From Gemmatimonadaceae bacterium (GTDB lineage Bacteria; Gemmatimonadota; Gemmatimonadetes; Gemmatimonadales; Gemmatimonadaceae), in contig JAIBBJ010000199.1 of assembly GCA_019694735.1 (NCBI GenBank), positions 16,661 through 80,660 of the forward strand: DNA of 64,000 bases, read 5' to 3'. Under the pieces are notes generated by a model. It searched no databases, had not been told where the DNA came from, and saw only the letters and a list, made by a program, of their open reading frames with translations. A program made the position numbers and the translations under genes. The stretch's first letter is position 1, and every line of letters starts with the position of its first letter. Below are positions 43,965-64,000 of this stretch, one piece after another.

Positions 43965-44429
43965 TCACACGGGGGCGCCGCGCCTCGGGAAGACGAAGGT
44001 CTGCTGCCCGAGCCGACGGTCGGCGACCGCGGAGACGAGGTCCACCGTGGACACGATCCCGACGAGGCGGTGGTCCTCGACGACGGGCAGCCGGTGCAGC
44101 CGTTCGCGCTTCATCACCTCGGCGGCGAGCGTGACCGCGTCGTCCGGGCGCAGCGAGCGCACGGGCGCGCGCGTCATCGCCTCCTCGACCGCGTGTCCCT
44201 CGAGGATCCCGTGCTCGCGTCCGCCGTCCATCTCCGGTGGCTCGGACGGGAGTCCGGCGATGAAGTCGAGCAGGTCGCTGGCGCTGAGCATGCCGACGAT
44301 GCGGCCGTTCGCCACGACGGGCATCCCGCCGAGCCGCTCGGTGGCGAGGAGTTCGGCGGCCTCGCGGATGCTGACGTCCGGTGCGATGGTCAGCACCTCC
44401 GTGGTCATGATGTCGCGTAGCTTGAGCAT
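43965..44429 (-). CDS. CBS domain pair protein
   Basis: LRDIMTTEV...GGMPVV..GRIVGMLS..D; VEEAMT..; RLPVV..RLVGIVSTVDL. Confidence 0.9.
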   Translation of the reverse strand: MLKLRDIMTTEVLTIAPDVSIREAAELLATERLGGMPVVANGRIVGMLSASDLLDFIAGLPSEPPEMDGGREHGILEGHAVEEAMTRAPVRSLRPDDAVTLAAEVMKRERLHRLPVVEDHRLVGIVSTVDLVSAVADRRLGQQTFVFPRRGAPV

Positions 44430-44456
44430 CGGGACCTCCCGGGTGTTGGCGCGGCC

Positions 44457-45551
44457 TCAGCGCGTGGTGGGGAGCGGGAAGCGGAGCCCGGCGAAGACGC
44501 CCTCGCCGTCGGACGGCATATCGCCGCCGACCGGGGCGAGCGCGACCTCGGCACCTGCCGCGAGCGCCCGCTGCACGAGTGCCTCGATCTCGTCGGGGTG
44601 CTGCCGCCAGGCGCGTTCGGAGAAGATGAGCTCGGCGAGGGCGCCCAGGTCGGCGGCGGTGCGGGCGGGCGTGAGTCCGACGGCGGCCCGGCCGTGTGCG
44701 TGCGCCATCTCGCGCAGCTCCGCGACGCGACGGAGCCGGAGCGTACGCTCGAGGTCCTGGAGGGCCCCATGGATGACCGGGGCGGTCACCGCGTCATCCG
44801 CGGAGAGCGCGAGATCGGCGACCAGCACCGCGCGGTCGGCCACCGCGCCGGGCAGGTGGGCGAGCAGGCGGGCCGCAGCCTCGGCGCCGCCGCCGATCAG
44901 GATCGGCATGGTTCGTCCCGCCAGATGGAGCACCTGGGTGCGCGCGAACGCGAGCAGTCGGTCCGTGGCCTCCTGCCGCTGGCGCTGGTCCTCATCGGTC
45001 CTCGTGCGGCCACGCGTGCCGTCGTGGAACCCGAGGCGCGCCGCGTCCCCCATGTGCGGTCCCGGCTCGTGGTCGAGCGTGGCATCGCGCGAGACCAGCG
45101 GCTCCAGCACACCCTCGTGCCAGCGGTGGATGCGCAGGTGCAGGCGGTCGATGCGGACCACGAGCGCCGGCGGCTCGTCCGCCGCGCGGAGGAACGGGAC
45201 CAGTCGCACGCCCGGGCCCCACGCCACCTGCGTCTCGGCCGCGTCGCGGAGGTGGACCGTGAGCACCTCGCCGCCGGCACTGGCGAAGCAGGCCCACCCG
45301 AGCCCGCCGGCCGGGGTCTCGCCGTTCGGCAGCCGGCCGAGGACTTCCGCGGCGCAGCGCTCGAAGGCGTCCTGCTCGTCGGCCGGGGCCTGGACGAGCG
45401 ACTCGCGGACGTCGTTCAGTCCCTGCCGGAGGCGGACGCGCCAGTTGCGGCGCGCCGCGGGGTCCGCCGGGGCCGCCTCGATGTACACGGAGAGGGTGAG
45501 CTCGTCGCGGTGCGCACGCACGAAATCGAGGAGATCGTCTCGGATGTTCAC
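44457..45551 (-). CDS. Bacterial archaeo-eukaryotic release factor 1 (baeRF)-like protein
   Basis: GTG 45551 after GGAGG; LSVYI N-domain; middle domain VVRIDR..RI / ILIGGG; eRF1 domain-3-like GRAAVG...LAELI...IEALVQRALAAGAEV...GVFAGLRF; no GGQ. Confidence 0.65.
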   Translation of the reverse strand: MNIRDDLLDFVRAHRDELTLSVYIEAAPADPAARRNWRVRLRQGLNDVRESLVQAPADEQDAFERCAAEVLGRLPNGETPAGGLGWACFASAGGEVLTVHLRDAAETQVAWGPGVRLVPFLRAADEPPALVVRIDRLHLRIHRWHEGVLEPLVSRDATLDHEPGPHMGDAARLGFHDGTRGRTRTDEDQRQRQEATDRLLAFARTQVLHLAGRTMPILIGGGAEAAARLLAHLPGAVADRAVLVADLALSADDAVTAPVIHGALQDLERTLRLRRVAELREMAHAHGRAAVGLTPARTAADLGALAELIFSERAWRQHPDEIEALVQRALAAGAEVALAPVGGDMPSDGEGVFAGLRFPLPTTR

Positions 45552-45711
45552 GGGGCCCTCCGGCTCGTTCGGATCCACCGTACAGGTGCAATACTGCCCG
45601 GCGGTGCGGTGGGAGCCATCAGCGGAGATGCTGAACCCGTGTGCGGGGAAACCGTAGGTGGGCCGAAGCCGCACGGGTGGGTTCCCTCGCACGGCGCGGC
45701 CGGGAAGCACG

Positions 45712-45741
45712 ACGGGGCGGCGCCGTCCGGCGCCGCCCCGT
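45712..45741 (-). terminator. 13-bp-stem hairpin downstream of the giant FN3 gene
   Basis: ACGGGGCGGCGCC-GTCC-GGCGCCGCCCCGT, 25 bp past the stop at 45767. Confidence 0.5.
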
Positions 45742-45766
45742 TGCGTGTCGAGCCGCTGTCGAGCGG

Positions 45767-48700
45767 TCAGGGATAACCGCGGGCCCAGTGGTTGGTCAGG
45801 TTGCCGGTGTAGGCGGTGGAGAGGATCGGATAGACGGCGGGCAACGCCGTCCCCCACGTGTGGCTGATGTAGTTCACCGTGGTGGGGCTGCCGGTGTCCT
45901 GTGTCCGCGTGATGGTGTTCTGGAAGTTGACCATCAGCCAGTACGTGCCGGCGGCGACCGTCACGTTGCCCGTCGTGAACTCGACCTGGCCGGTCGTGCT
46001 GATGGTCCCGACGGCCTGCGCGACGAGCACGCTGGGCCGGCCGGCGGCATCGGTGTAGAGCCCGATCCGCGCGCCGCCGGTGCCGCCGGCGACGTTCAGC
46101 CCGAGGTGCGTGAGCGTGATCGGCTGCGAGATCGTGATCTGCTGGCCGATCAGGTAGTTCGGGCTCCACGGGCTCGTCCCGGCGAAGGCCGTCGGGTAGC
46201 CGTAGCGCACCACGTACGAGGCCTTCACGGAGACGTTGGAGAACGAGCTGTAGCCCTGCAGCATGATGAACCAGTCACCGGCCGCCGGGTTGTCGATGAC
46301 GCACTCCTCGGCGTTGCCGCCGATGTACGGCCGGCAGTTGAAGAGCCCGAGGGTCGCCGCGAACCCTTGGCGCACGTACAGGTCGGCGTCGCCGGTGCCG
46401 CCCGAGATGGTGACGCGCAGCTGCGGCGTGCCGGCGGGCACGTTGATGACGTAGTGGCGCTGCGCGGACGCGGTGTCCGTGATGCCGGCGATCGTCTGCC
46501 CGTTCGACATCGGGACCGGCATCCACACGCCGGCTCGCACCGTCGTGTCGGAGAGGGTGCCGTTGGAGACCGCGCGGACGGACCACGAGGCGCTGATCCC
46601 GGCCGGCACCGAGGGATAGGTGTACGTCGTGACGTCCGGTCCCACCGTGCCGATCACGCTGACCGGGGTGCACCCGACGCCGCCGCACGCGAGGATCTGG
46701 TAGCCGGTCTCGATCGTGCTGTTGTCGGACCAGGTGACGTCGACCCGCCCGCGGTCCACCACCGTCGCCTGGATGCCGCTGGGCGCGACGAGCACCGTGG
46801 ACGCATCCCCCGACACCGGGCCGCCCGCGGAGAATCCGATGCCGCTCCGGAACGTCCGCACGCGGTAGCGATAGATGCTGTTCGGCACCACCGAGCTGTC
46901 GACGTGCGCGGTGACGTCGACGCCCAGCACCGCGGTGATGCTGAAGTTCGAGCAGCCGGTGCCCGCGCAGCGCTCGATGACGTTGAACGTCTCGTTGTCG
47001 GCGTTGTCGGCCCACGTGACGGTCACGCGGTTGACCGTGTTCGGCGTCACCACGAGCGCGCTCGGGTCGGCCGGCTGCCGCGTGTCCGCCGCCGCCGTGT
47101 TGCTGTACGGGGTCACGCCCACCGCATTGAAGGCGCGGATCCGGTAGACGTATGACCCGTTGAGCACGAGGCCGGTGTTCGCGAAGCCGGTCACGTCCGG
47201 ACCCGTGGTCGCGATCTCCTCGAAGTCGGTGCATCCCGCGCTGCTGCACCGTTCGATGCGGTAGCCGGACTCGTCACTGGCGTTGTCCACCCAGCCCAGG
47301 TTGATCTGGACCGAGTTGATCATCGTCGCCGTCAGCCCCGTCGGGGCCGCCGGCAGCGTGGTCGCCGCGACCGCGGTGGCCGTGTAGGCCGAGTTCCCCA
47401 CCGGGTTCGTCGCGACGATCCGGAACTGGTACGTGTTGTTGAAGGCGAGGTCGTTCACCTGGAAGGCCGCGACGTCCGGCCCCACGCTCGCGAACGGCGC
47501 GAAGTCGACGCATCCGCCGCCCGTGCAGCGCTCGAGGATGAACCCGGTCTCGTTCCCCGAGTTGTCGAGCCAGGTGAGCGACGCCTGGGTCTCCGAGAGG
47601 GTGGTGGCCGCGAGGTTGAGCGGGACGTTCGGCGCATCGAGGAGCTGCAGCACCTCGCTGCTGTTGTCCGACGAGCCCGCCGCGTTGGTGGCGCGGACGC
47701 GGTAGTTGTAGAACTCGCCGGTGGTGAGGCCGGCGTCCTCATAGAAGGTCGAGTTCGCGGGCACGCTGCTCACCGGGGCGAAGTCGGCGCACTCCTTCCC
47801 GAGGCAGCGCTCGATGACGAACGCATCCTCGTTGTTCGCGTTGTCGTTCCAGTCCACCCGGATCGCGGTCGGCGACGTGATGACGAGACCGATGATCTCC
47901 GGGCGGTCGGGCAGCAGGGTCGAGCCCACGGCGAGCGGGGAGGCGCCGGAGATGCCGGCGGCGTTCCGCGCGTAGACGCGGTACGCGTACTGGCGCCCGA
48001 GGTCCACGCGGGCGTCGGCGTAGACCGTCGTCGCCGCGTCCACGGAATCGCGCAGCGCCACCCCGGTGTTGCAGGCCGGGTCGTCGCAGCGTTCGATCAC
48101 GAACCAGATCGGTGCCCCGCCGGCGGACGCGTTCCAGGTCACGTCGATCTGGGTCGCCGTGATGGTCGTCGCCACGACGTCGGTCGGGTCGCCGGGGATG
48201 GAGGTCGTGGCCCCCGCCTCCGCCGTGTAGGCCGAGGCGCCGGCGGCGTTCACCGCCCGCACCCGGTACGTGAAGGATTCATTCGGCGCGATCGGCGCGT
48301 CGGTGAACGCGGTCGTGCCCGGCGGCAGCTGGGCCTGCTCGGTGAAGTCGCTGCACCCGACGCCGGCGCACCGCTCCACGCGGAACGACTCCTCGTTGTC
48401 CGACGCGTCGGCCCAGGCGAGGTCGATGCGCGTGGCGCTCACGGTCGTCGCCGTCAGTCCGGTCGGGGCCGCGGGCAGGTCGGTGTCGAGCTCCACGATC
48501 GCCGAGTAGCCCGAGCTGCCGGCGGCGTTGCTCGCCCGGACCCGGTACCGGTACGTGGTGTTCGCGACCGTCGAGACGTCGCTGAAGCTGACGGTGTTCG
48601 GCGGTTGGAACCCGATCTGGGCGAAGGAGGTGCACCCGGTGCCGGTGCAGCGCTCCACGAAGTAGGCGAGCTCGTTGTCCGCGGCGTCGACCCACGCGAG

Positions 48701-55699: not shown

Positions 55700-57403
55700 T
55701 CAGGGATTCGGGACCGTGATGACCACCGTGCCGGTGGTGCTGCCGCCGCCACCGCCACCACCGCCGCCACCACCACCACCCATCGCGGCCGCCGCGGCGG
55801 CGCCGCCGCCCAGCACCGCGATCCACACCCACTTCGGCATGCCGCCCTTCTTCGCGACCGCCGGTGGCGCGCCGCCGCCCGGGCCCGCGGCCACCGCCGT
55901 GCGCAGCGGCACCGCGATGCGCGTGAGCTGCCCCGGCTGGAGCAGCACGTCCTGCGTGCGCGTCGGCAGCCCCGGGGCGCTCGTCTCGAGGCGATACCGC
56001 CCCATCGGCCCCGTGAACGTGAACGGCGACGCGCCCGTCGTGCCGGTCGTCACCTCGCCCCAGTGCCACCGCTCGATCCCGACGAGGCGCACCGAGGCGC
56101 CCGGCACGTCGGCCACCACCGTCAGCTGGCCGAAGAGATGGTTCTCGCGCCGCGCGACGTCGGCGACCGCGATCGTCTGCTGCGCCGTCACCGCCTGCCG
56201 CGCCGCCGCCAGCAGGGCCGCGGCGTTCGGGCCCGGCACCGCCGCGGACGCGCCCGACCACGGGCCGATCAGCCGGCCGAGGTAGTCCACCACCGGCGAG
56301 CCCGGCACCGCGTTCGCGATCTCCGTCCCCAGCTTGAGCGCGCCGAGCGGCCGCTGCGTCCACTCGTCGAGCGTGCTGCGCGTGTCGCCGGCGGTCCGGC
56401 ACTGCGCGAGGCCGATGCCCCACGCCGCCTGCCCGTCGATCAGCTGCGTCGCGAGCGGCGTCGAGTCCGGCCGCGCCTGCGGCAGCGCGAGCACCGCGAG
56501 GTTCGCGGTCGCGTCGTATGCCGCCACGCGGACTTCGCCCGGGGCGGGCGTGCCATTGAAGGACGCGCTGATCGCATCGCCGCCGCGGATCGCGCTGTAG
56601 GTCGTGACCACGAAGCGCCCGCCCACCACCGCGCCGGCGGCGCACGTCGGCGCCGCCGCGCCGAAGCGCGTCACCGACAGGGCCACGGTCGCGCGGAACG
56701 CCCGCTGCCGCGCGTCCTCGGTGATGTTCGCCGAGACCACCGCCGCCGACGTGAGCTGGAACGAGAGCGTCAGGTTCACGCCCGGCAGCACCTCGCGCGT
56801 GATGCGCGCGGGCAGGTAGCCCGTCGCGCCCACCTCGATCTCGTACGTCCCCGGCGCGAGCGTGAGCCCCGGACCGGCCGGGAGCACGCCGATCGTGTTG
56901 CCGTTGGCGCCGCGCACGAGGACGTTCACCGGCACCGGCATCGTCGAGGGGTCGAGCCGCAGCTGGCCCTGCGCCGCGCGGTTGCCGACGGCGGGCCACT
57001 GGTACGCCATGCGCGTGACGTCGTCGCCCGCGGTGCGCGAGCCGACCGCGGTCCGCGCCGTCCGCAGGGCCGTGACGACGCCCTGCGGGAAGGCGACGGT
57101 GTCGATCACGATCGCCGGATTGGTCCGCATCACCCAGCGCGCCCATGTCCCGGCGAGCGTCTCGTCGCCATTCTCGAGCAGCAGCTGCGTCACGAGTTGG
57201 GCGGCGCGCGCCCAGTTCGCGTCGGGCGCGCCGAGCGCGGGATTGAGCGCCGCGCGCGCGAAGTCCAGCGCGCGGTCGGGCGCGAAGTCGTCGTACGCCT
57301 GCGTCGCCTGCCGGAGCAGGTCGGAGCGCGTGGGCTGCTGCGCCGCGGCGGGCGCGGCGGCGACGGCCGCGAGTGCGGCGGCGAGAAGGAGGCGGCGCAT
57401 CAT
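55700..57403 (-). CDS. Secreted/anchored protein: helical N-domain, PEGA-like, degenerate trypsin-like domain, PEGA-like, hydrophobic + poly-Gly tail
   Basis: Signal peptide AAA/QQ; PGTYEIEVGATGY and GRYRLETSAPG PEGA-like motifs; trypsin-like scaffold (FVVTTYSAI, YD..ANLAVL, PGSPVVDYLGRLIG); ATGA overlap with the kinase. Confidence 0.75.
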   Translation of the reverse strand: MMRRLLLAAALAAVAAAPAAAQQPTRSDLLRQATQAYDDFAPDRALDFARAALNPALGAPDANWARAAQLVTQLLLENGDETLAGTWARWVMRTNPAIVIDTVAFPQGVVTALRTARTAVGSRTAGDDVTRMAYQWPAVGNRAAQGQLRLDPSTMPVPVNVLVRGANGNTIGVLPAGPGLTLAPGTYEIEVGATGYLPARITREVLPGVNLTLSFQLTSAAVVSANITEDARQRAFRATVALSVTRFGAAAPTCAAGAVVGGRFVVTTYSAIRGGDAISASFNGTPAPGEVRVAAYDATANLAVLALPQARPDSTPLATQLIDGQAAWGIGLAQCRTAGDTRSTLDEWTQRPLGALKLGTEIANAVPGSPVVDYLGRLIGPWSGASAAVPGPNAAALLAAARQAVTAQQTIAVADVARRENHLFGQLTVVADVPGASVRLVGIERWHWGEVTTGTTGASPFTFTGPMGRYRLETSAPGLPTRTQDVLLQPGQLTRIAVPLRTAVAAGPGGGAPPAVAKKGGMPKWVWIAVLGGGAAAAAAMGGGGGGGGGGGGGSTTGTVVITVPNP

Positions 57404-59232
57404 CCCTTGGGCTTGAGCTCGATGGTGATCGTCTTCACTTCACCGGCCTGCAGGTCCACCGTCTGCGAGACGGTCTCGTAACCGTCCTTCGAGACCTTGA
57501 TCGTGTGCGTCCCGCCGAGGAGACGCTCCTGGAAGTTCCCCTTGTTGCCGAGCGAGCGGCCGTCGATCTCGACCGTCCCCGCCACGGGGAGCCGCACGCG
57601 GAGCGTCGCCATCGCCGCGTCGGCGGCGCCTGCCGCCGGCGCACTCGGCGCGGGCTGCGTGGCGGGCTGCTGGGCGGGCAGCGTGGAAGCGGGTACGGTC
57701 GCCGGCGCGGAGGCCTGCTGGCGCGGCGCCGGGGCCTTGGTCGGGGCCTTCGTCGGCGCCTTGGTCTCCGCGGCAGGCGCCTTCGTCTCCGCCGCCGGCT
57801 TCGTCTCGGTCGCCGGGGGCGTCGTGGCGGGGGGCGCGCTCGCCCCCGTCGCGGAATCGGTGCCGGTCGTCGCCGCGCCGGCGACCGGGCCCGGCGTCGC
57901 CGTGCCCAGGGCCGACACCGGGGCCGACGCGACCTGCTGCGTCACCGGCGTGGCCGGCGCCTCGCCGCCCTTCGTCGCGAAGTACGCCGCCGCCCCGCCG
58001 CCGAGCACCACCACCGCGCCAATCACGGCGAACAGGCCGGCCTTGCTCTTCGGCTCCGGCGCCGGCGCAGGGGCCGGCGCGGCGGTCCGCGCCGCCGGCT
58101 TCTGCCCCGCCACCACCGTGCGGTCGTTCGGCCCCGTCGTCGCCTTCGCCGCCGACGACCGGTTCTTGCCGCTCGTCGAGCCCGCCGGATTCGCACCCGG
58201 GCCGCCCGTCCGCAGCTTCTTCGCCTCCGCGGGGTCGAGCACGACCGTCGCCACGCTCGGCCGCACCGGGCCGCGGGCCACGAAATCCGGGTCGGCCATC
58301 GACTCGATGAAGTCGTGCACCGTCAGGAAGCGGTCCGCCGCGTCCTTCGAGAGCGCGCGGGCCACCGCCTGCGCGACATGCGCCGGGATGTCCGGCACGT
58401 CGTCGTGCAGCGACGGGGCGGGGAACATGCAGTGCTTGTGCAGGATGTCGATCGCCGAGTCGCCGTCGAACGGCACGTGCCCCGCGAGCATCCGATACGC
58501 CATCACCGCCACCGAGTACTGGTCCGAGGCGCCGGAGACCGGCTTCCCCATCCCCTGCTCGGGGCTCATGAAGTACGGCGTGCCGATCACCGAGTCGGTC
58601 GCCGTGAGCTTCCCCTCGGAGAGCGCCTTCGCGATGCCGAAGTCCGTCACGATCACGCGGTCGCGCGAGTCCAGCATCACGTTCGCCGGCTTGATGTCGC
58701 GGTGGATGACCTTGTTCTGGTGCGCGTAGTCGAGGGCGTCGGCGACCTGGCGGAGGATCTCGCAGGTCTCGTCCACCGGGAGCGACCCGCGCTCCTTCAG
58801 CCGGTCCTCGAGCGACTGCCCCTCGAGGAACTTCATCGCGTACCAGAAGAGCTTGCCGCTGTCGCCGATCCGGTAGATCGGGATGATGTGCGGGTGGTCG
58901 AGCGCCGCCGCCGTCCGCGCCTCGCGCTTGAACCGCTCGACGCCATGACCGAACGTGAGCTCCGGCGGCAGCACCTTCAGCGCCACCTTGCGGGCCAGCC
59001 CCGTCTCCTCGGCGAGGTACACGACCGCCATGCCGCCGCGGCCGAGCATGTGCTTGACGTTGTAGACCCCCTTCGTGTCCTCGCGGAGCAGCCGCTCCAT
59101 GTGCAGGAACGAGGACTGGTCCATCGCCGCGGTCGCCGCGGCTTGGCCCTCGGCGTCGGAGACGAGGGACCCGCAGGAATGACAGAAGCGCGCCTCGTCA
59201 GGGACGGGCGTGCTGCAGTGGGCGCAGATCAT
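57400..59232 (-). CDS. Eukaryotic-like Ser/Thr protein kinase with N-terminal zinc ribbon, TM helix and C-terminal PEGA domain
   Basis: CAHC..CHSC; GRGGMAVVY; VALKVL; HRDIKPANV; DFGIAK; GTPYFMSPEQ; SDQYS; TM LFAVIGAVVVLGGGAAAYF; GTHTIKVSKDGYE. Confidence 0.93.
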   Translation of the reverse strand: MICAHCSTPVPDEARFCHSCGSLVSDAEGQAAATAAMDQSSFLHMERLLREDTKGVYNVKHMLGRGGMAVVYLAEETGLARKVALKVLPPELTFGHGVERFKREARTAAALDHPHIIPIYRIGDSGKLFWYAMKFLEGQSLEDRLKERGSLPVDETCEILRQVADALDYAHQNKVIHRDIKPANVMLDSRDRVIVTDFGIAKALSEGKLTATDSVIGTPYFMSPEQGMGKPVSGASDQYSVAVMAYRMLAGHVPFDGDSAIDILHKHCMFPAPSLHDDVPDIPAHVAQAVARALSKDAADRFLTVHDFIESMADPDFVARGPVRPSVATVVLDPAEAKKLRTGGPGANPAGSTSGKNRSSAAKATTGPNDRTVVAGQKPAARTAAPAPAPAPEPKSKAGLFAVIGAVVVLGGGAAAYFATKGGEAPATPVTQQVASAPVSALGTATPGPVAGAATTGTDSATGASAPPATTPPATETKPAAETKAPAAETKAPTKAPTKAPAPRQQASAPATVPASTLPAQQPATQPAPSAPAAGAADAAMATLRVRLPVAGTVEIDGRSLGNKGNFQERLLGGTHTIKVSKDGYETVSQTVDLQAGEVKTITIELKPKG

Positions 59233-59617
59233 CGGGCGTGAAGGGCCGTCGAATGGGGTGGGACCGACCCGCCGAATATCCGGTCAGACTCTAATGTTTG
59301 CAATATCCCGGACCGTCGAGGGTCGAACCGCCATCGGGACTCGGAACGGTGAGAGAATCGTGCCAGTCCGTCACGGTGGTGGAAGTCCCGACCGGCATCG
59401 CCGCCAAGTCCTTTCCGCGCAACGCGTTGCTCGGGGCCCGCAGCTGGGCGTCGCCGACGGGCTCCCCCCGGCGACCTGCGTCACCCCGGGAGGCGGTCGG
59501 AGGTTACCATGGGACCGTGCGACCGGACCCCTCTGACCGGCGGCTGCCGCGCGCGGCCCGTGCGCCGGGGCGCGAGTGATGCGCCGCTGCCGCGGCGCCG
59601 GTGCGGCGATTCGCCAG

Positions 59618-61762
59618 TCAGCCGGCGATCAGGCGCCAGACCTGCGCGACCAGGAAGGTCGCGACGACCCCCATGCCGAGCGGCAGCAGCGTGGCGACGG
59701 CCGTCCACTTCACACTGCGCGTCTCCTTGTGGATCGTGTAGATCGTCGTCGAGCAGGGGTTATGCAGCAGGCTGAACAGCATCAGGTTCACCGCCGTGAG
59801 CGCGGTCCAGCCGTGCTGCCGGAGCAGGGCCCCGACCTCGGCGGCGTCGAGCTCGAACATCACCCCCGCGCCCGCCCCCAGCTCGGGCGTGCCGCCCACG
59901 AGCACCGTGAGCATGAGCACCGTGGGGATCACGATCTCGTTCGCCGGGATCGCCACCACGTAGGCGAGCAGGATGACCCCGTTGAGGCCGAGGAGGATCC
60001 CGACGGGGTCCAACCATCGGGTGACATGGGCCGCGACGCTCTCGCCGCCCCAGCCGACGTTGGCGACGAGCCAGATCACCGCGCCGGCGGGCGCCGCGAA
60101 CACGATCGCGCGCCACAGCACGATCAGCGTCCGGTCGATCAGGCTCGTGTAGAGCGTCTGCCAGATCCGCGGCGGCCGGTACGGCGGCAGCTCCAGCGAG
60201 AAGCTCGTCGCCTCGCCGCGTAGCACGGTGCGCGTGAGCAGCCAGCTCGAGAGGAACATCGCCGCGACGCCGATCAGCGTGACCGCCACGACCGCGGTCG
60301 CCGAGACGAGGCCGGCCAGCGCCGGCGGCGCGAGCGCGCCGATGAAGATGGACGCGAGCAGGATCTGCGTCGGCCAGCGCCCGTTGCAGAGCGAGAAGTT
60401 GTTCGTGATGATCGCCACCAGCCGCTCGCGCGGCGAGTCGATCACGCGCGTCGCCACCACGCCGGCCGCGTTGCAGCCGAACCCCATGCACATCGTCAGC
60501 GCCTGCTTGCCGTGCGCACCCACGCGCCGGAAGAGCGCATCGAGGTTGAAGGCGACCCGCGGCAGGTAGCCGAAGTCCTCCAGCAGCGTGAACAGCGGGA
60601 AGAAGATCGCCATCGGCGGCAGCATCACGGCGATCACCCAGGCGGTCGCGAGATAGACGCCGTCCACGAGCAGCCCCGTGAGCCACCACGGGGCGCCCAT
60701 CGCGTCGAAGGCCCCGCGGAGCCACGGATGCCCGGCGTCCACGAGCAGCGACGCGATCATCCCCGACGGCACGTTGGCCCCCGCGATCGTCAGCCAGAAG
60801 ACGATGCCGAGCAGCAGCACCATCAGGGGGAACCCGGTCGCGCGGCTCGTCAGCAGGCGGTCGAGCGTCCGGTCGAACGTGAATCCCGCCTTCGCGGCCC
60901 CGCGGAGCGCCGCCCGCGCGGCGATCCGCTCCGCGGCCGCGTAGAGGCCCTGGGCGATGCGGTCGTGGAAGTCGGGACTGAGCCGCCACCGCACCTCGTT
61001 GGCGCGCGCGACGACCGCTGGCGGCAGCATGGCCTGCACCCGCTCGTCGGCGTTGAGCAGCCGCAGCGCCACCCAGCGCGCGTTCGGCCGCTCCGGCTCC
61101 GCCGCGCGCACGGCCGCCTCCACCTCGCCGATCAGCGCCTCGACCTCCGGCGTGAAGTGGCTCGCGCGGCCCGGGGCCGGCGCGACCTCGCCCCGCGCCA
61201 CCTGCTGCACCGCGGCGCGCAGCGCGTCGAGCCCCTCGCCCTGGCGCATCGCCGCGGGGACCACCGGCACTCCGAGCTCCCGGGCCAGCGCCTCGGCGTC
61301 CACGCCGATGCCGAGCCGGCGCGCCTCGTCCATCAGGTTGAGGCAGACCACCACACGTGGCGTGATCTCGAGCACCTGCAGCGCGAGGTTCAGGTTGCGC
61401 TCGAGCCGCGTCGCGTCGAGCACGATGATCGTGACGTCCGGCCGCCCGAACAGCAGCGCGTCGCGCGCGACCTCCTCGTCCGTGCTCGCCGCCTGCAGCG
61501 AGTACGTGCCGGGCAGGTCCACGAGCTTGAACCGGTCCCCGCCCACGGTGAACAGTCCTTCGGCGCGCGTGACCGTCTTGCCCGGCCAGTTGCCGGTGTG
61601 CTGCCGGAGGCCCGTGAGGGCGTTGAACACCGTGCTCTTGCCGGTGTTCGGGTTGCCGGCGAGCGCGACGAGGAAGTCCCAGCGGTCGGACCGCACCCCG
61701 AGCTGGACCAGCGATTCGTCGCGCGCCGGGAGGCGCGTCCGCATCGTCGTGCCCGGCGTCAT
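59618..61762 (-). CDS. feoB: Ferrous iron transport protein B
   Basis: GNPNTGKS, NWPGKTV, DLPGTYSL, NLMD G-motifs; EDFGYLPRVAF; MGFGCNAAG; CNGR; HNPCSTT; ATG 61762 overlaps the upstream stop (ATGA). Confidence 0.95.
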   Translation of the reverse strand: MTPGTTMRTRLPARDESLVQLGVRSDRWDFLVALAGNPNTGKSTVFNALTGLRQHTGNWPGKTVTRAEGLFTVGGDRFKLVDLPGTYSLQAASTDEEVARDALLFGRPDVTIIVLDATRLERNLNLALQVLEITPRVVVCLNLMDEARRLGIGVDAEALARELGVPVVPAAMRQGEGLDALRAAVQQVARGEVAPAPGRASHFTPEVEALIGEVEAAVRAAEPERPNARWVALRLLNADERVQAMLPPAVVARANEVRWRLSPDFHDRIAQGLYAAAERIAARAALRGAAKAGFTFDRTLDRLLTSRATGFPLMVLLLGIVFWLTIAGANVPSGMIASLLVDAGHPWLRGAFDAMGAPWWLTGLLVDGVYLATAWVIAVMLPPMAIFFPLFTLLEDFGYLPRVAFNLDALFRRVGAHGKQALTMCMGFGCNAAGVVATRVIDSPRERLVAIITNNFSLCNGRWPTQILLASIFIGALAPPALAGLVSATAVVAVTLIGVAAMFLSSWLLTRTVLRGEATSFSLELPPYRPPRIWQTLYTSLIDRTLIVLWRAIVFAAPAGAVIWLVANVGWGGESVAAHVTRWLDPVGILLGLNGVILLAYVVAIPANEIVIPTVLMLTVLVGGTPELGAGAGVMFELDAAEVGALLRQHGWTALTAVNLMLFSLLHNPCSTTIYTIHKETRSVKWTAVATLLPLGMGVVATFLVAQVWRLIAG

Positions 61763-62829
61763 GCCGCCCCCGCGGGCGCACCGCCGATCGCCGCATCCGC
61801 GGCCGCACCATCCTCCGCCGCGGGCTCGACCTCGATCCACGCCGCCTGATGCCGCCGCAGCGCGATCAGGGCGCCCCGGATCCGATAGGCGATCGGGTCG
61901 CCGCCCGCGGAGCGCATCTCGCCGACGATCCGCGTCCCGGGGACGACGCCGAGGTCGAGCAGCCGGCGGCGCTGTGCCCCCCGGCAATCCGAGGAGAGTC
62001 GCCGCACGCGGCCGACCTCGCCCATCGCGAGGTCCGCCAGTGTCCGCACCGGCCCGTGCGCGACCTCGGCGCGTTCGATGCTCACCGCCGGCTCGAACGC
62101 CCGCGGGATCGCCAGCTCACGGCCATCGAGCACGAGCGCCGTCATCGTCGGCGTGCGCGAGCGCACCACCACCGACTTGCCGAGCGCGAAGCCCTGCGCG
62201 ACGAGACGGTCGTAGGCGTCCGTCGGCTCGTCCTCGAGGTGCACGATCGTCCCGCCATCCCCGGGCGGCAGCGTCGGCAGCGGGAGGTCCGTCGTCACCG
62301 GCAACTCACCGGTCGCGGTCGGGATCGGGTCGCCGTGCGGGTCGAACCGGGGCTGCCCCAACCGTTCGGCGAGCCGCTCCACCTCCTCCGGCGTGAGCAG
62401 GTGCTCCTCGTCCTCCGCGACCTCGTGCCACTCCTCGGGGCCGATGCCGGTGCGGTCGGCGAGATAGTGCTCGAGCAACCGGTGCGACCGGACGATCCGG
62501 AGTGCCTCCGTGCGGCCTACGGCGGTCAGGCGGTGCCCCAACGGGCCGTGCCGTTCGGCGAGGCCGCGATCGGTCAGCCGGTCGAGCAGGTCGCGCGCCA
62601 CGGCCTGCCGGACCTGTAGCGCGCCGGCCAGCGCGTCCGGCGTGACGTCGGTCCCCTCGGCGCCCCGATGGAAGAGGTACTTGAGTGCATCCTCCACGCG
62701 GACCCGTTCGGTCGCCCGCCGGAGGCGGCGCAGGCGCGCCGCGACCCCCACGCGCGGCCAGAAGGCGGCGAGGCAGAGGGTGCTGAGGAGGGCGAAGAGC
62801 CCGAGGGCGAGGGCAGGGTCGGTGTACAT
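61759..62829 (-). CDS. Membrane-anchored DtxR/MntR family metalloregulator fused to two FeoA/SH3-like domains
   Basis: N-terminal hydrophobic helix; EDALKYLF wHTH; LTAVGRTEALRIVRSHRLLEHYL; HEVAEDEEH; PRFDPHGDPIP; C-terminal canonical FeoA RRLLDLGVVPGTRI...GDPIAYRIRGALIALR. Confidence 0.88.
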   Translation of the reverse strand: MYTDPALALGLFALLSTLCLAAFWPRVGVAARLRRLRRATERVRVEDALKYLFHRGAEGTDVTPDALAGALQVRQAVARDLLDRLTDRGLAERHGPLGHRLTAVGRTEALRIVRSHRLLEHYLADRTGIGPEEWHEVAEDEEHLLTPEEVERLAERLGQPRFDPHGDPIPTATGELPVTTDLPLPTLPPGDGGTIVHLEDEPTDAYDRLVAQGFALGKSVVVRSRTPTMTALVLDGRELAIPRAFEPAVSIERAEVAHGPVRTLADLAMGEVGRVRRLSSDCRGAQRRRLLDLGVVPGTRIVGEMRSAGGDPIAYRIRGALIALRRHQAAWIEVEPAAEDGAAADAAIGGAPAGAA

Positions 62830-62832
62830 ATC

Positions 62833-62850
62833 TTTTAGGACGTACGAAAA
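62833..62850. promoter_or_regulatory. Candidate DtxR/MntR-type operator (imperfect AT-rich palindrome)
   Basis: TTTTAGGACGTACGAAAA: 7 of 9 symmetric pairs; TTTAGG half-site; 3 bp from the regulator start codon in otherwise GC-rich DNA. Confidence 0.55.
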
Positions 62851-63059
62851 ATGCGGAGCGCGCGGACCGTCGTCAAGGCGCCGCGCGGCGCCCCGGACCG
62901 TTCCGGCGCGGGCGGACCTTGGAGGGTGGCGTATGCGTCAGCCCCGTAGCCCGTGCCGGTCGCGCCAGGCGGACGCGCCCTTCGCGCGCTGACCTCCACG
63001 AGCCTCCGGGCCGCCGCGAGCCGTGGAGCGCGCCGCAGGCGGCAGGGCCGGGGACGCGA

Positions 63060-63088
63060 ACGCCCCCCGCCGCGAGGGCGGGGGGCGT
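63060..63088 (-). terminator. 12-bp-stem hairpin downstream of the S8 peptidase
   Basis: ACGCCCCCCGCC-GCGAG-GGCGGGGGGCGT. Confidence 0.5.
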
Positions 63089-63111
63089 CCGGTCCCACCG
63101 GGGGCGCGCGG

Positions 63112-64000
<889 letters not shown>

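What the first reader, a model, noticed from the sequence alone, without database searches (positions are those of the whole stretch)
61759..62829. Membrane-tethered DtxR/MntR regulator fused to FeoA and coupled to feoB
Seen: N-terminal TM helix followed by an Arg-rich stretch (cytoplasmic C-terminus by the positive-inside rule), complete wHTH and metal-binding domains, the usual SH3-like domain, and an extra canonical FeoA domain; ATGA overlap with feoB and no separate feoA or feoC. The HEVAEDEEH motif has Glu where DtxR has Cys102, as in MntR/SloR-type proteins. Established: DtxR-family repressors are normally soluble and FeoA interacts with FeoB. Inference: the repressor is docked on its own transporter, sensing Fe(II) or Mn(II) flux at the membrane.
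Basis: partly seen in the sequence, partly recalled or inferred. Interest (0 to 1): 0.65.

Follow-up and report, generated by a model that had tools for sequence, protein, structure and literature searches.

The report
Membrane-anchored metal-sensing FeoA partner of FeoB
The gene before feoB encodes a membrane-anchored protein that joins a DtxR-type metal sensor to a FeoA module; it belongs to a widespread, barely studied family and more likely controls the metal transporter directly than acts as a DNA-binding repressor.

Summary
ORF 62829..61759 (-) encodes 356 aa: an N-terminal hydrophobic helix, an Arg-rich juxtamembrane helix, a DtxR/MntR-fold core with all metal ligands, an SH3-like domain and a canonical FeoA domain. 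It overlaps feoB by ATGA.

It is not a one-off. Full-length relatives form 338 clusters (50% identity) and occur in more than 575 species of at least 8 phyla. 77% of the best 150 cluster representatives carry the helix. feoB follows directly in 79 of 80 loci. The only characterised relative is helix-less PgMntR of Porphyromonas gingivalis, which has twin FeoA domains and lies upstream of the Mn transporter feoB2.

The "repressor" reading is weak.
- The wHTH is among the least conserved parts, is neutral to acidic, and misses Pfam PF01325 in about 95% of members.
- 31 of 80 loci encode a canonical soluble DtxR immediately upstream. Its recognition helix is conserved and co-varies with a DtxR-type box at the operon head.
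- The window has a degenerate copy of that box (62834-62849), and its genome has a canonical DtxR elsewhere.

Best reading (about 0.5): a membrane-anchored, metal-sensing FeoA subunit that gives FeoB post-translational feedback, with transcription left to the soluble paralog. This is a new variant of a known kind.

The parts
61759..62829 (-). Whole ORF, 356 aa: membrane-anchored DtxR-like protein with twin FeoA/SH3 domains
62761..62817 (-). Residues 5-23: N-terminal hydrophobic helix, predicted transmembrane anchor (N-out, C-in)
   Evidence: AlphaFold2 helix 5-23 with pLDDT 86-93. Conserved in 24 of 24 Gemmatimonadota homologues and in 115 of the best 150 cluster representatives. The positive-inside rule holds in 111 of 113.
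62701..62760 (-). Residues 24-43: W-P-R-x-G turn and Arg-rich juxtamembrane helix (net charge about +4 to +6)
   Evidence: W24, P25, R26 and G28 are invariant in the phylum. P25 is kept in 76% and G28 in 86% of the family. The spacer from the helix to the ED.LK motif is 21-22 residues in 67 of 113.
62527..62700 (-). Residues 44-101: wHTH-fold domain. Helix 1 (E46, D47, K50) is conserved; helix 2, helix 3 and the wing are divergent.
   Evidence: No PF01325 hit. Column entropy is about 3 bits. Net charge is 0. The fold is present.
62317..62526 (-). Residues 102-171: DtxR dimerisation and metal-binding domain with H116, E120, H135, E139, E142, H143 and the DPHGDPIP motif
   Evidence: PF02742 at 83.5 bits. 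The ligands are invariant in 146 representatives.
62065..62277 (-). Residues 185-255: first SH3-like/FeoA-like domain (the usual third DtxR domain) with H197-x-E199-D200-E201-P202
   Evidence: Second FeoA stretch. Strands 192-253 in the model. The motif is kept in at least 93% of the family.
61822..62043 (-). Residues 263-336: canonical FeoA domain (R287-R288-R289-L-L-D-L-G, R325)
   Evidence: PF04023 best stretch 263-336. Sequence matches to solved FeoA structures 2k4y, 2k5l, 2k5f and 2gcx. R289, D292, G294 and R325 are invariant.
61759..61762 (-). ATGA stop/start overlap with feoB (translational coupling)
59618..61762 (-). feoB, 714 aa, G domain plus membrane domain, no FeoA domain of its own
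62834..62849 (.). Degenerate DtxR-type box TTTAGGACGTACGAAA (+ strand), 5-20 nt upstream of the ATG
   Evidence: 12.7 bits against a matrix built from 20 orthologous loci; rank 5 in the 3.5-Mb genome. Orthologous loci carry TTTAGGCnnGCCTAAA at the same place.
63057..63091 (-). GC-rich hairpin after the upstream S8 peptidase gene. It probably ends that transcript, so the feo operon would have its own promoter in 62830-63056.
   Evidence: 15-nt arms, 93% complementary. No sigma-70 consensus was found by the simple scan.

Best explanation
The gene encodes a bitopic inner-membrane protein with a short N-tail outside and the bulk in the cytoplasm. It serves as the FeoA-type partner and built-in metal sensor of the FeoB encoded directly downstream.

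Proposed mechanism:
- A DtxR-fold dimer core binds cytoplasmic Mn(II) or Fe(II) at two intact sites. One is D47/E139/E142/H143. The other is H116/E120/H135 plus H197/E199/D200/E201 from the first SH3 domain.
- Metal occupancy changes how the C-terminal FeoA domain engages the G domain of FeoB, so uptake is throttled after translation.
- The anchor, the fixed 21-22-residue spacer and translational coupling keep sensor and transporter together.
- Transcription of the operon is probably controlled through the upstream DtxR-type box by the canonical soluble DtxR paralog. That paralog lies on contig C18 in this genome and is the first gene of the same operon in many other phyla.

Shown: the architecture, the conservation, the synteny with feoB, the box, the degenerate wHTH and the existence of the paralog. 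Inferred: membrane insertion, contact with FeoB, the direction of the feedback, and which protein reads the box.
For: - Architecture and fold.
- Helix conserved, with positive-inside topology.
- feoB lies directly downstream in 79 of 80 loci and no other FeoA gene is in these operons.
- The FeoA domain and the metal ligands are the most conserved parts, and the wHTH is among the least.
- Paired test in 31 loci that hold both proteins. wHTH pairwise identity is 0.28 for the anchored protein against 0.39 for the canonical paralog, although its other domains are more conserved (0.61 against 0.51-0.56). wHTH net charge is -1.6 against +2.7.
- PF01325 is matched by 6 of 113 and 2 of 33 family representatives, but by 10 of 10 adjacent canonical paralogs.
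- The box TTTAGGCnnGCCTAAA is the only hit of at least 13 bits in each 9-kb locus, except for a second, weaker hit beside it in two loci. It sits 105 nt or less upstream in 20 of 22 Gemmatimonadota loci. In other phyla it sits upstream of the canonical gene that heads the operon.
- The canonical helix follows the box type (ASVTDMIKKL with TTAGG or TTAGAC; AAATDMARKL with TTAAG). The anchored protein's helix is acidic and unrelated to box type.
- With the same box, the residue equivalent to DtxR Q43 is E, R, K or D.
- The window's genome has a canonical DtxR (PF01325 at 62 bits) and a second classical feoA-feoB pair.
- Precedent: in the natural FeoA-FeoB fusion of Bacteroides fragilis, FeoA stabilises GTP-bound FeoB (PMC8980893).
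Against: - PgMntR, the helix-less relative, shifted its own promoter DNA in EMSA and Mn(II) strengthened the shift (PMC4805248). However, binding persisted with EDTA and needed the very basic second FeoA domain.
- In Gemmatimonadota the helix-3 start S-R-x-x-A and some Arg residues are semi-conserved and the wHTH is neutral rather than acidic, so residual DNA binding in the window protein cannot be excluded.
- No canonical DtxR is adjacent in the window.
- Co-occurrence of the anchored protein with a canonical DtxR (13 of 13 genomes) is not significant against the base rate.
- No direct evidence of FeoB contact or of membrane insertion exists.
Confidence: 0.5

Rival explanations
1. The protein is a genuine membrane-tethered DNA-binding repressor that binds the upstream box when metal-loaded, and it also docks on FeoB through FeoA.
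For: - Complete DtxR fold with a wHTH.
- A box lies right at its start codon.
- No adjacent canonical regulator in Gemmatimonadota loci.
- Weak sub-threshold PF01325 matches of about 22 bits in frames of 348-375 aa that I take, by size only, to be orthologues.
- PgMntR EMSA (PMC4805248).
- ToxR- and CadC-type regulators show that membrane-bound DNA binding is possible (own knowledge).
Against: - The wHTH is among the least conserved parts and is not basic.
- The same box is paired with charge-reversing changes at the base-contact position.
- The box type tracks the canonical paralog's helix, not this protein's.
- Every genome in the phylum sample that has the protein also has a canonical DtxR.
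- In DtxR the N-terminus lies next to the DNA (own knowledge), so a 20-residue tether would place the membrane against the DNA-binding face.
Confidence: 0.25
2. A membrane-anchored decoy. The protein forms heterodimers with, or otherwise sequesters, the soluble canonical DtxR at the membrane, and so links transporter state to repressor availability. The sequestration of Mlc by PtsG is the analogy.
For: - The dimerisation domain is highly conserved in both paralogs.
- The two genes are adjacent in 31 of 80 loci.
Against: No test of interface compatibility was possible. The idea adds a step that the data do not require, and the FeoA domain and the feoB coupling are left unexplained.
Confidence: 0.07
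3. A latent regulator released by intramembrane or juxtamembrane proteolysis. The conserved Pro and Gly just after the helix would be the cleavage determinant, and the soluble product would then act on DNA, as PgMntR is reported to do.
For: - Helix-breaking P25 and G28 are conserved next to the helix.
- Genuine helix-less members exist, with stop codons just upstream.
Against: No protease gene is conserved in the loci (the gene lists). The same wHTH objections apply as for the repressor model.
Confidence: 0.05
4. The hydrophobic N-terminus is not a membrane anchor. It would be either an annotation artefact or a helix that packs on the protein.
For: There is no experimental topology, and the model confidence for residues 21-40 is only 65-67.
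Against: - It is conserved at protein level in more than 100 cluster representatives from at least 8 phyla, with mean hydrophobicity of 1.6-3.5 over 19 residues and a strict charge asymmetry.
- tblastn alignments in relatives start at residue 3-4.
Confidence: 0.03

Closest known systems
PgMntR (PG1044) of Porphyromonas gingivalis, the 'twin-FeoA' DtxR subfamily (PMC4805248)
   Same: - DtxR-like core followed by two FeoA domains, encoded in one operon with a feoB (feoB2, a Mn transporter).
- All ligand residues named in the paper (D19, H85, E89, H104, C108, E111, H112, D132, H134, H166, D169, E170) map to invariant window residues. D19 maps at offset 28 and the other eleven at a constant offset of 31 (D47, H116, E120, H135, E139, E142, H143, D163, H165, H197, D200, E201).
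- The genome also has a second, classical Feo system, as P. gingivalis does.
   Different: - PgMntR is 310 aa and starts after the point where the helix ends in the window protein, so it has no membrane anchor.
- It has Cys at the position of E139.
- It was studied only as a soluble DNA-binding regulator. The paper does not mention a membrane-anchored form.
- I could not check whether the P. gingivalis start codon is correctly placed.
Canonical DtxR/MntR/IdeR/ScaR metalloregulators (e.g. 5zr6, 8pvt/DR2539, 1c0w)
   Same: The fold (TM-score 0.87-0.92), the dimerisation domain, both metal sites and the SH3-like third domain.
   Different: - N-terminal membrane helix.
- An extra FeoA domain.
- The wHTH is not recognised by PF01325, is not basic and is poorly conserved.
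FeoA, and the natural FeoA-FeoB fusion of Bacteroides fragilis (PMC8980893)
   Same: A canonical FeoA domain (PF04023) encoded with feoB, and the only FeoA in the operon. Tethering FeoA close to FeoB has a precedent in that fusion.
   Different: Here FeoA is fused to a metal sensor and a membrane anchor instead of to FeoB itself.
FeoC (a small wHTH protein that binds FeoB in gamma-proteobacteria)
   Same: A wHTH-fold module associated with FeoB for which DNA binding has not been shown (own knowledge). It offers a possible functional analogy for the degenerate wHTH.
   Different: No sequence relationship was found: the Pfam scan of the window protein lists no PF09012 match. There is no Fe-S cysteine motif; the Cys pair in this region occurs in only about 11 of 137 family representatives.
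Regulators that dock on their transporter (Mlc-PtsG, MalT-MalK) and membrane-bound one-component regulators (ToxR, CadC)
   Same: The general idea of coupling regulation to a transporter at the membrane.
   Different: Mlc and MalT are soluble and are recruited to the transporter. ToxR and CadC have an N-terminal DNA-binding domain, then a transmembrane segment, then a periplasmic sensor. Here the helix is N-terminal and only about 3-4 residues lie outside.

Membership tests
DtxR/MntR family metalloregulators | N-terminal wHTH DNA-binding domain (Pfam PF01325) | tested here: not met
   No PF01325 hit at E<=0.01 for the window protein. 6 of 113 and 2 of 33 family representatives hit it, against 10 of 10 canonical neighbours. 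The fold itself is present.
DtxR/MntR family metalloregulators | Dimerisation and metal-binding domain (PF02742) with primary and ancillary site ligands | tested here: met
   83.5 bits. D47, H116, E120, H135, E142 and H143 are invariant or nearly so.
DtxR/MntR family metalloregulators | Metal-dependent binding to a palindromic operator | not testable with these tools
   A DtxR-type box exists upstream, but sequence covariation points to the canonical paralog as its reader.
DtxR/MntR family metalloregulators | Soluble cytoplasmic protein | tested here: not met
   Conserved N-terminal hydrophobic helix with positive-inside asymmetry. This is a prediction only.
Twin-FeoA DtxR subfamily (PgMntR type) | DtxR-like core plus two C-terminal FeoA/SH3 domains | tested here: met
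   All 146 representatives match PF02742 and PF04023.
Twin-FeoA DtxR subfamily (PgMntR type) | Encoded directly upstream of feoB | tested here: met
   ATGA overlap in the window. 79 of 80 loci. Helix-less members as well.
Twin-FeoA DtxR subfamily (PgMntR type) | Colinear metal-ligand residues with PgMntR | tested here: met
   Constant offset of 31 for 11 residues named in PMC4805248, compared with the invariant columns.
FeoA | SH3-like domain of about 75 aa that matches PF04023 above threshold | tested here: met
   81.3 bits against a cut-off of 23, residues 263-336. Sequence matches to solved FeoA structures.
FeoA | Binds the N-terminal G domain of FeoB and is needed for transport | not testable with these tools
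   Inferred only from strict synteny and from the absence of any other FeoA in the operon.
Membrane-bound one-component regulators (ToxR/CadC type) | Cytoplasmic DNA-binding domain, one transmembrane segment, periplasmic sensor domain | tested here: not met
   The helix is N-terminal and only about 3-4 residues precede it. There is no periplasmic domain, and the sensor is cytoplasmic.
FeoC | Small wHTH protein matching PF09012 | tested here: not met
   The Pfam scan of the window protein at E<=0.01 lists no PF09012 match.

The most novel reading that the evidence does not exclude
A DtxR-fold metal sensor has left DNA and become a membrane-anchored allosteric subunit of a transporter. Metal occupancy of the DtxR sites would gate FeoB through the fused FeoA domain. 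This would be the first described post-translational metal-feedback device of the Feo system. It would work beside a canonical DtxR paralog that keeps the transcriptional role.
Probability: 0.45. Interest if true: 0.75.

Novelty: new variant of a known kind. Interest (0 to 1): 0.6.

Why it matters
How FeoA acts on FeoB, and how Feo-type uptake is shut off quickly when the metal is replete, are open questions.

This family offers a natural construct in which a well-understood metal switch (the DtxR core) is wired to FeoA and pinned beside FeoB. It occurs in hundreds of species. Several are cultured: Cyclobacterium qasimii, Maribacter caenipelagi, Lutibacter oricola, Tenacibaculum and Saccharicrinis fermentans.

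The result also bears on annotation. Databases name these proteins 'DtxR family Mn-dependent transcriptional regulator', which may be wrong for most members.

The side-by-side pair of a canonical and an anchored paralog is a clean case of a transcription-factor fold being repurposed.

Finally, the only characterised member, PgMntR, belongs to the minority that lacks the helix, so its published role may not hold for the family.

Tried and rejected
- I looked in the window's own genome for a regulon of the box. The consensus matrix gives only 8 sites of at least 10 bits. The variant TTCGT-N4-CCTAA occurs twice: at the window site and at C130:46515, upstream of a molybdopterin-oxidoreductase-like gene. 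About 0.8 occurrences are expected by chance, so nothing can be concluded.
- I tested whether genomes without a canonical DtxR still carry the anchored protein, which would force it to be the box reader. None of 9 such genomes has it, and all 13 genomes that have it also hold a canonical DtxR. With a base rate of about 85% this is not significant.
- I tried to retrieve PgMntR itself to check its start codon. A search seeded with a Bacteroidales member returned only Marinilabiliales-type relatives.
- I looked for a difference between the two FeoB paralogs that might indicate Fe versus Mn. Both keep the Cys in the first gate motif and they share 35% identity. No full-length FeoB structure was found by sequence. 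Metal specificity is unresolved.
- A simple sigma-70 scan found no promoter in 62700-63200, and there is no Rfam match in 59000-64000.
- A Cys pair in the wHTH of some members looked like a possible Fe-S site, but it occurs in only about 11 of 137 representatives.
- Full-text searches found no paper that describes a membrane-anchored DtxR-FeoA protein.
Full report
**The object.** The minus-strand ORF 62829..61759 encodes 356 aa. Its TGA overlaps the ATG of feoB as ATGA (61759-61762). feoB (59618-61762) is a full-length FeoB (TIGR00437 E=1e-116) with no FeoA domain of its own. Pfam finds Fe_dep_repr_C at residues 102-171 (83.5 bits) and FeoA twice, best at 263-336. It finds no Fe_dep_repress (PF01325) match even at E<=0.01. 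The best NCBIfam match is a Thermus-type MntR, far below its cut-off (123 against 350 bits).

**The fold.** An AlphaFold2 model built on 24 homologues has mean pLDDT 87. It shows:
- helix 5-23;
- helix 26-38;
- a three-helix wHTH with a wing (41-101);
- the long dimerisation helix and metal domain (103-156);
- two SH3-like domains (192-253 and 272-336).

Foldseek places the core on MntR, ScaR, SloR, IdeR and DR2539 with a target TM-score of 0.87-0.92.

**Is the helix real?** The helix and the following W-P-R-x-G turn are invariant among 24 Gemmatimonadota homologues of 53-74% identity. tblastn alignments in other genomes start at residue 1-6.

An exhaustive profile search finds 338 clusters (50% identity) at E<1e-30. 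Of the best 150 representatives, 115 (77%) have an N-terminal 19-residue window with Kyte-Doolittle mean of at least 1.6.

In 111 of 113 of these the 15 residues after the helix hold more K+R than the residues before it (4.9 against 0.1). The N-tail has a median of 3 residues. The spacer to the first DtxR helix is 21-22 residues in 67 of 113. The predicted topology is therefore N-out, C-in, with a structured, fixed-length tether. Helix-less members are genuine: stop codons lie just upstream, and feoB still follows.

**Distribution and context.** A scan of one genome per species gave more than 575 hits. They include:
- Gemmatimonadota;
- Bacteroidota, with cultured Cyclobacterium, Maribacter, Lutibacter and Tenacibaculum, and later Saccharicrinis, Marinifilum and Maribellus;
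- Ignavibacteriota, Chloroflexota, Calditrichota, Acidobacteriota, Verrucomicrobiota and Latescibacterota.

In 79 of 80 fetched loci feoB follows directly; the remaining locus ends at the contig edge. Outside Gemmatimonadota feoB is mostly split into a G-domain gene and a membrane-domain gene.

In 31 of 80 loci a canonical DtxR/MntR gene of 217-237 aa lies immediately upstream on the same strand, often overlapping. Within the phylum the anchored gene is patchy: 13 of 81 genomes.

The window's own genome (3.5 Mb, 97% complete) also holds two related loci:
- a canonical DtxR on C18, with PF01325 at 62 bits;
- a classical feoA-feoB pair on C37. The two FeoB proteins share 35% identity.

[quoted passage not shown] It is co-operonic with feoB2, the Mn transporter, in a genome that also has an iron FeoB1 (PMC4805248).

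Of the twelve residues the authors list, D19 maps at offset 28 and the other eleven map onto invariant residues of the window protein at a constant offset of 31. PgMntR is therefore a helix-less member that begins just after the anchor.

That paper reports binding to its own promoter. However, the binding persisted in EDTA and was lost on removal of the very basic second FeoA domain (pI 11.4). The paper does not mention a membrane-anchored form, and I found no other paper that does.

**Does the anchored protein read DNA?** Five lines of evidence say probably not.

1. Across 146 representatives the columns for helix 2, helix 3 and the wing have entropies near 3 bits. The metal ligands, the DPHGDPIP motif, the H-x-EDEP motif and the FeoA motif RRRLxDLG are invariant or nearly so.
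2. PF01325 is matched at E<1e-3 by 6 of 113 helix-bearing and 2 of 33 helix-less representatives. It is matched by 10 of 10 adjacent canonical paralogs at 58-73 bits.
3. In the 31 loci that hold both proteins, the anchored paralog is more conserved than the canonical one in helix 1 and the metal domain (0.61 against 0.51 and 0.56). It is less conserved in the wHTH (0.28 against 0.39). Its wHTH net charge is -1.6 against +2.7. In Gemmatimonadota the wHTH is also among the least conserved parts (0.41 against 0.67 for the metal domain) and is neutral (+0.1; the window protein is 0).
4. A DtxR-type box, TTTAGGCnnGCCTAAA, gives the only matrix hit of at least 13 bits in each 9-kb locus, apart from a second, weaker hit beside it in two loci. 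It lies 105 nt or less upstream of the anchored gene in 20 of 22 Gemmatimonadota loci. In other phyla the same kind of box lies 29-122 nt upstream of the canonical gene that heads the operon.
5. Box variants track the canonical recognition helix. TTAGG and TTAGAC boxes go with (A/P)SVTDM(I/L)KKL, and TTAAG boxes go with AA(A/V)TDMARKL. The anchored protein's helix is acidic, variable and unrelated to box type. Among Gemmatimonadota loci with the same box, the residue equivalent to DtxR Q43 is E, R, K or D.

**The box in the window.** The window carries a degenerate copy, TTTAGGACGTACGAAA, at 62834-62849. The right half-site is intact and the left is diverged. It scores 12.7 bits and ranks fifth among all positions of its genome. 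It sits at the same position as in loci L001 and L014.

**What remains open.**
- DNA binding by the window protein is not excluded. Gemmatimonadota members keep an S-R-x-x-A start of helix 3 and several arginines. No canonical gene is adjacent here. PgMntR shows some DNA affinity.
- The co-occurrence test was uninformative.
- Fe versus Mn cannot be decided. The ligand set is Mn-like: E, D, H or N and never Cys at position 139. The P. gingivalis analogy also points to Mn. The FeoB sequence gave no discriminating feature.
- Membrane insertion and FeoB contact are predictions.

The most likely reading (about 0.5) is a membrane-anchored, metal-sensing FeoA subunit that gives FeoB post-translational feedback, with transcription handled by the soluble canonical DtxR through the upstream box. 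The membrane-tethered repressor model keeps about 0.25.

The family is a new variant of a known kind. The twin-FeoA subfamily is published. Its dominant membrane-anchored form, its degenerate wHTH and its pairing with a canonical paralog appear not to be.

Noticed in passing
L018-L080 (e.g. L022:5005-7294, L055:5023-7207): Outside Gemmatimonadota the feoB that follows the anchored gene is usually split into two genes: a G-domain gene of about 255-290 aa and a membrane-domain gene of about 470-480 aa. They are often overlapping. In Gemmatimonadota feoB is one gene of 714-767 aa.
   Followed up: partly
Own genome, contig C37:6380-8918 and contig C18:658-1461 (outside the window): The same genome has a second, classical feoA-feoB pair (its FeoB is 35% identical to the window FeoB) and a canonical soluble DtxR/MntR (PF01325 at 62 bits). 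This mirrors the FeoB1/FeoB2 situation in P. gingivalis.
   Followed up: partly
L029, L032, L061, L056, L067, L073, L079, L036, L038, L043, L048, L049, L051, L060: 22-71 nt upstream of the first gene: There are three operator variants: TTAGG-N4-CCTAA, TTAGAC-N2-GTCTAA and TTAAG-N4-CTTAA. They co-vary with the recognition helix of the canonical DtxR paralog (SVTDM(I/L)KK against AAATDMARK). This looks like a small natural specificity code for this DtxR clade.
   Followed up: partly
L110:2960-2980 and L112:2518-2538: Two unrelated helix-less family members share a different perfect palindrome, ACTTTGAC-N2-GTCAAAGT, about 38 nt upstream of their start. No canonical DtxR is adjacent. Helix-less members may be true autoregulators with their own operator.
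   Followed up: no
Window 63057-63091: A GC-rich hairpin (15-nt arms) lies just after the stop of the upstream minus-strand S8 (subtilisin-like) peptidase gene (63112-64000, running off the window). It is a likely terminator and lacks a T-tract.
   Followed up: no
Window 62871-62876 (-): A TTGACG hexamer lies 18 nt upstream of the AT-rich patch. The same TTGAC(G/A) is seen upstream of the box in L001, L007, L010 and L014. There is no good -10 hexamer and no Shine-Dalgarno sequence, so the leader may be very short or absent.
   Followed up: partly
Own genome, C130:46515-46528: This is the only other copy of TTCGT-N4-CCTAA in the genome. It lies about 27 nt upstream of a 696-aa molybdopterin-oxidoreductase-like gene (minus strand, 44398-46488). 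The count is within chance expectation (about 0.8).
   Followed up: partly
G023:C1:152680-153773 (loci L103, L105): In one Gemmatimonadota genome the anchored gene matches in two separate frames (residues 3-161 and 34-272). This could be a frameshifted pseudogene or an assembly error. A canonical DtxR lies directly upstream there.
   Followed up: no
Window 57400-59232 (-): The gene after feoB is a 610-aa Ser/Thr protein kinase with an N-terminal zinc-ribbon-like CxxC...CxxC motif and a low-complexity Ala/Pro/Thr-rich C-terminal half. It showed no obvious link to the feo operon.
   Followed up: no
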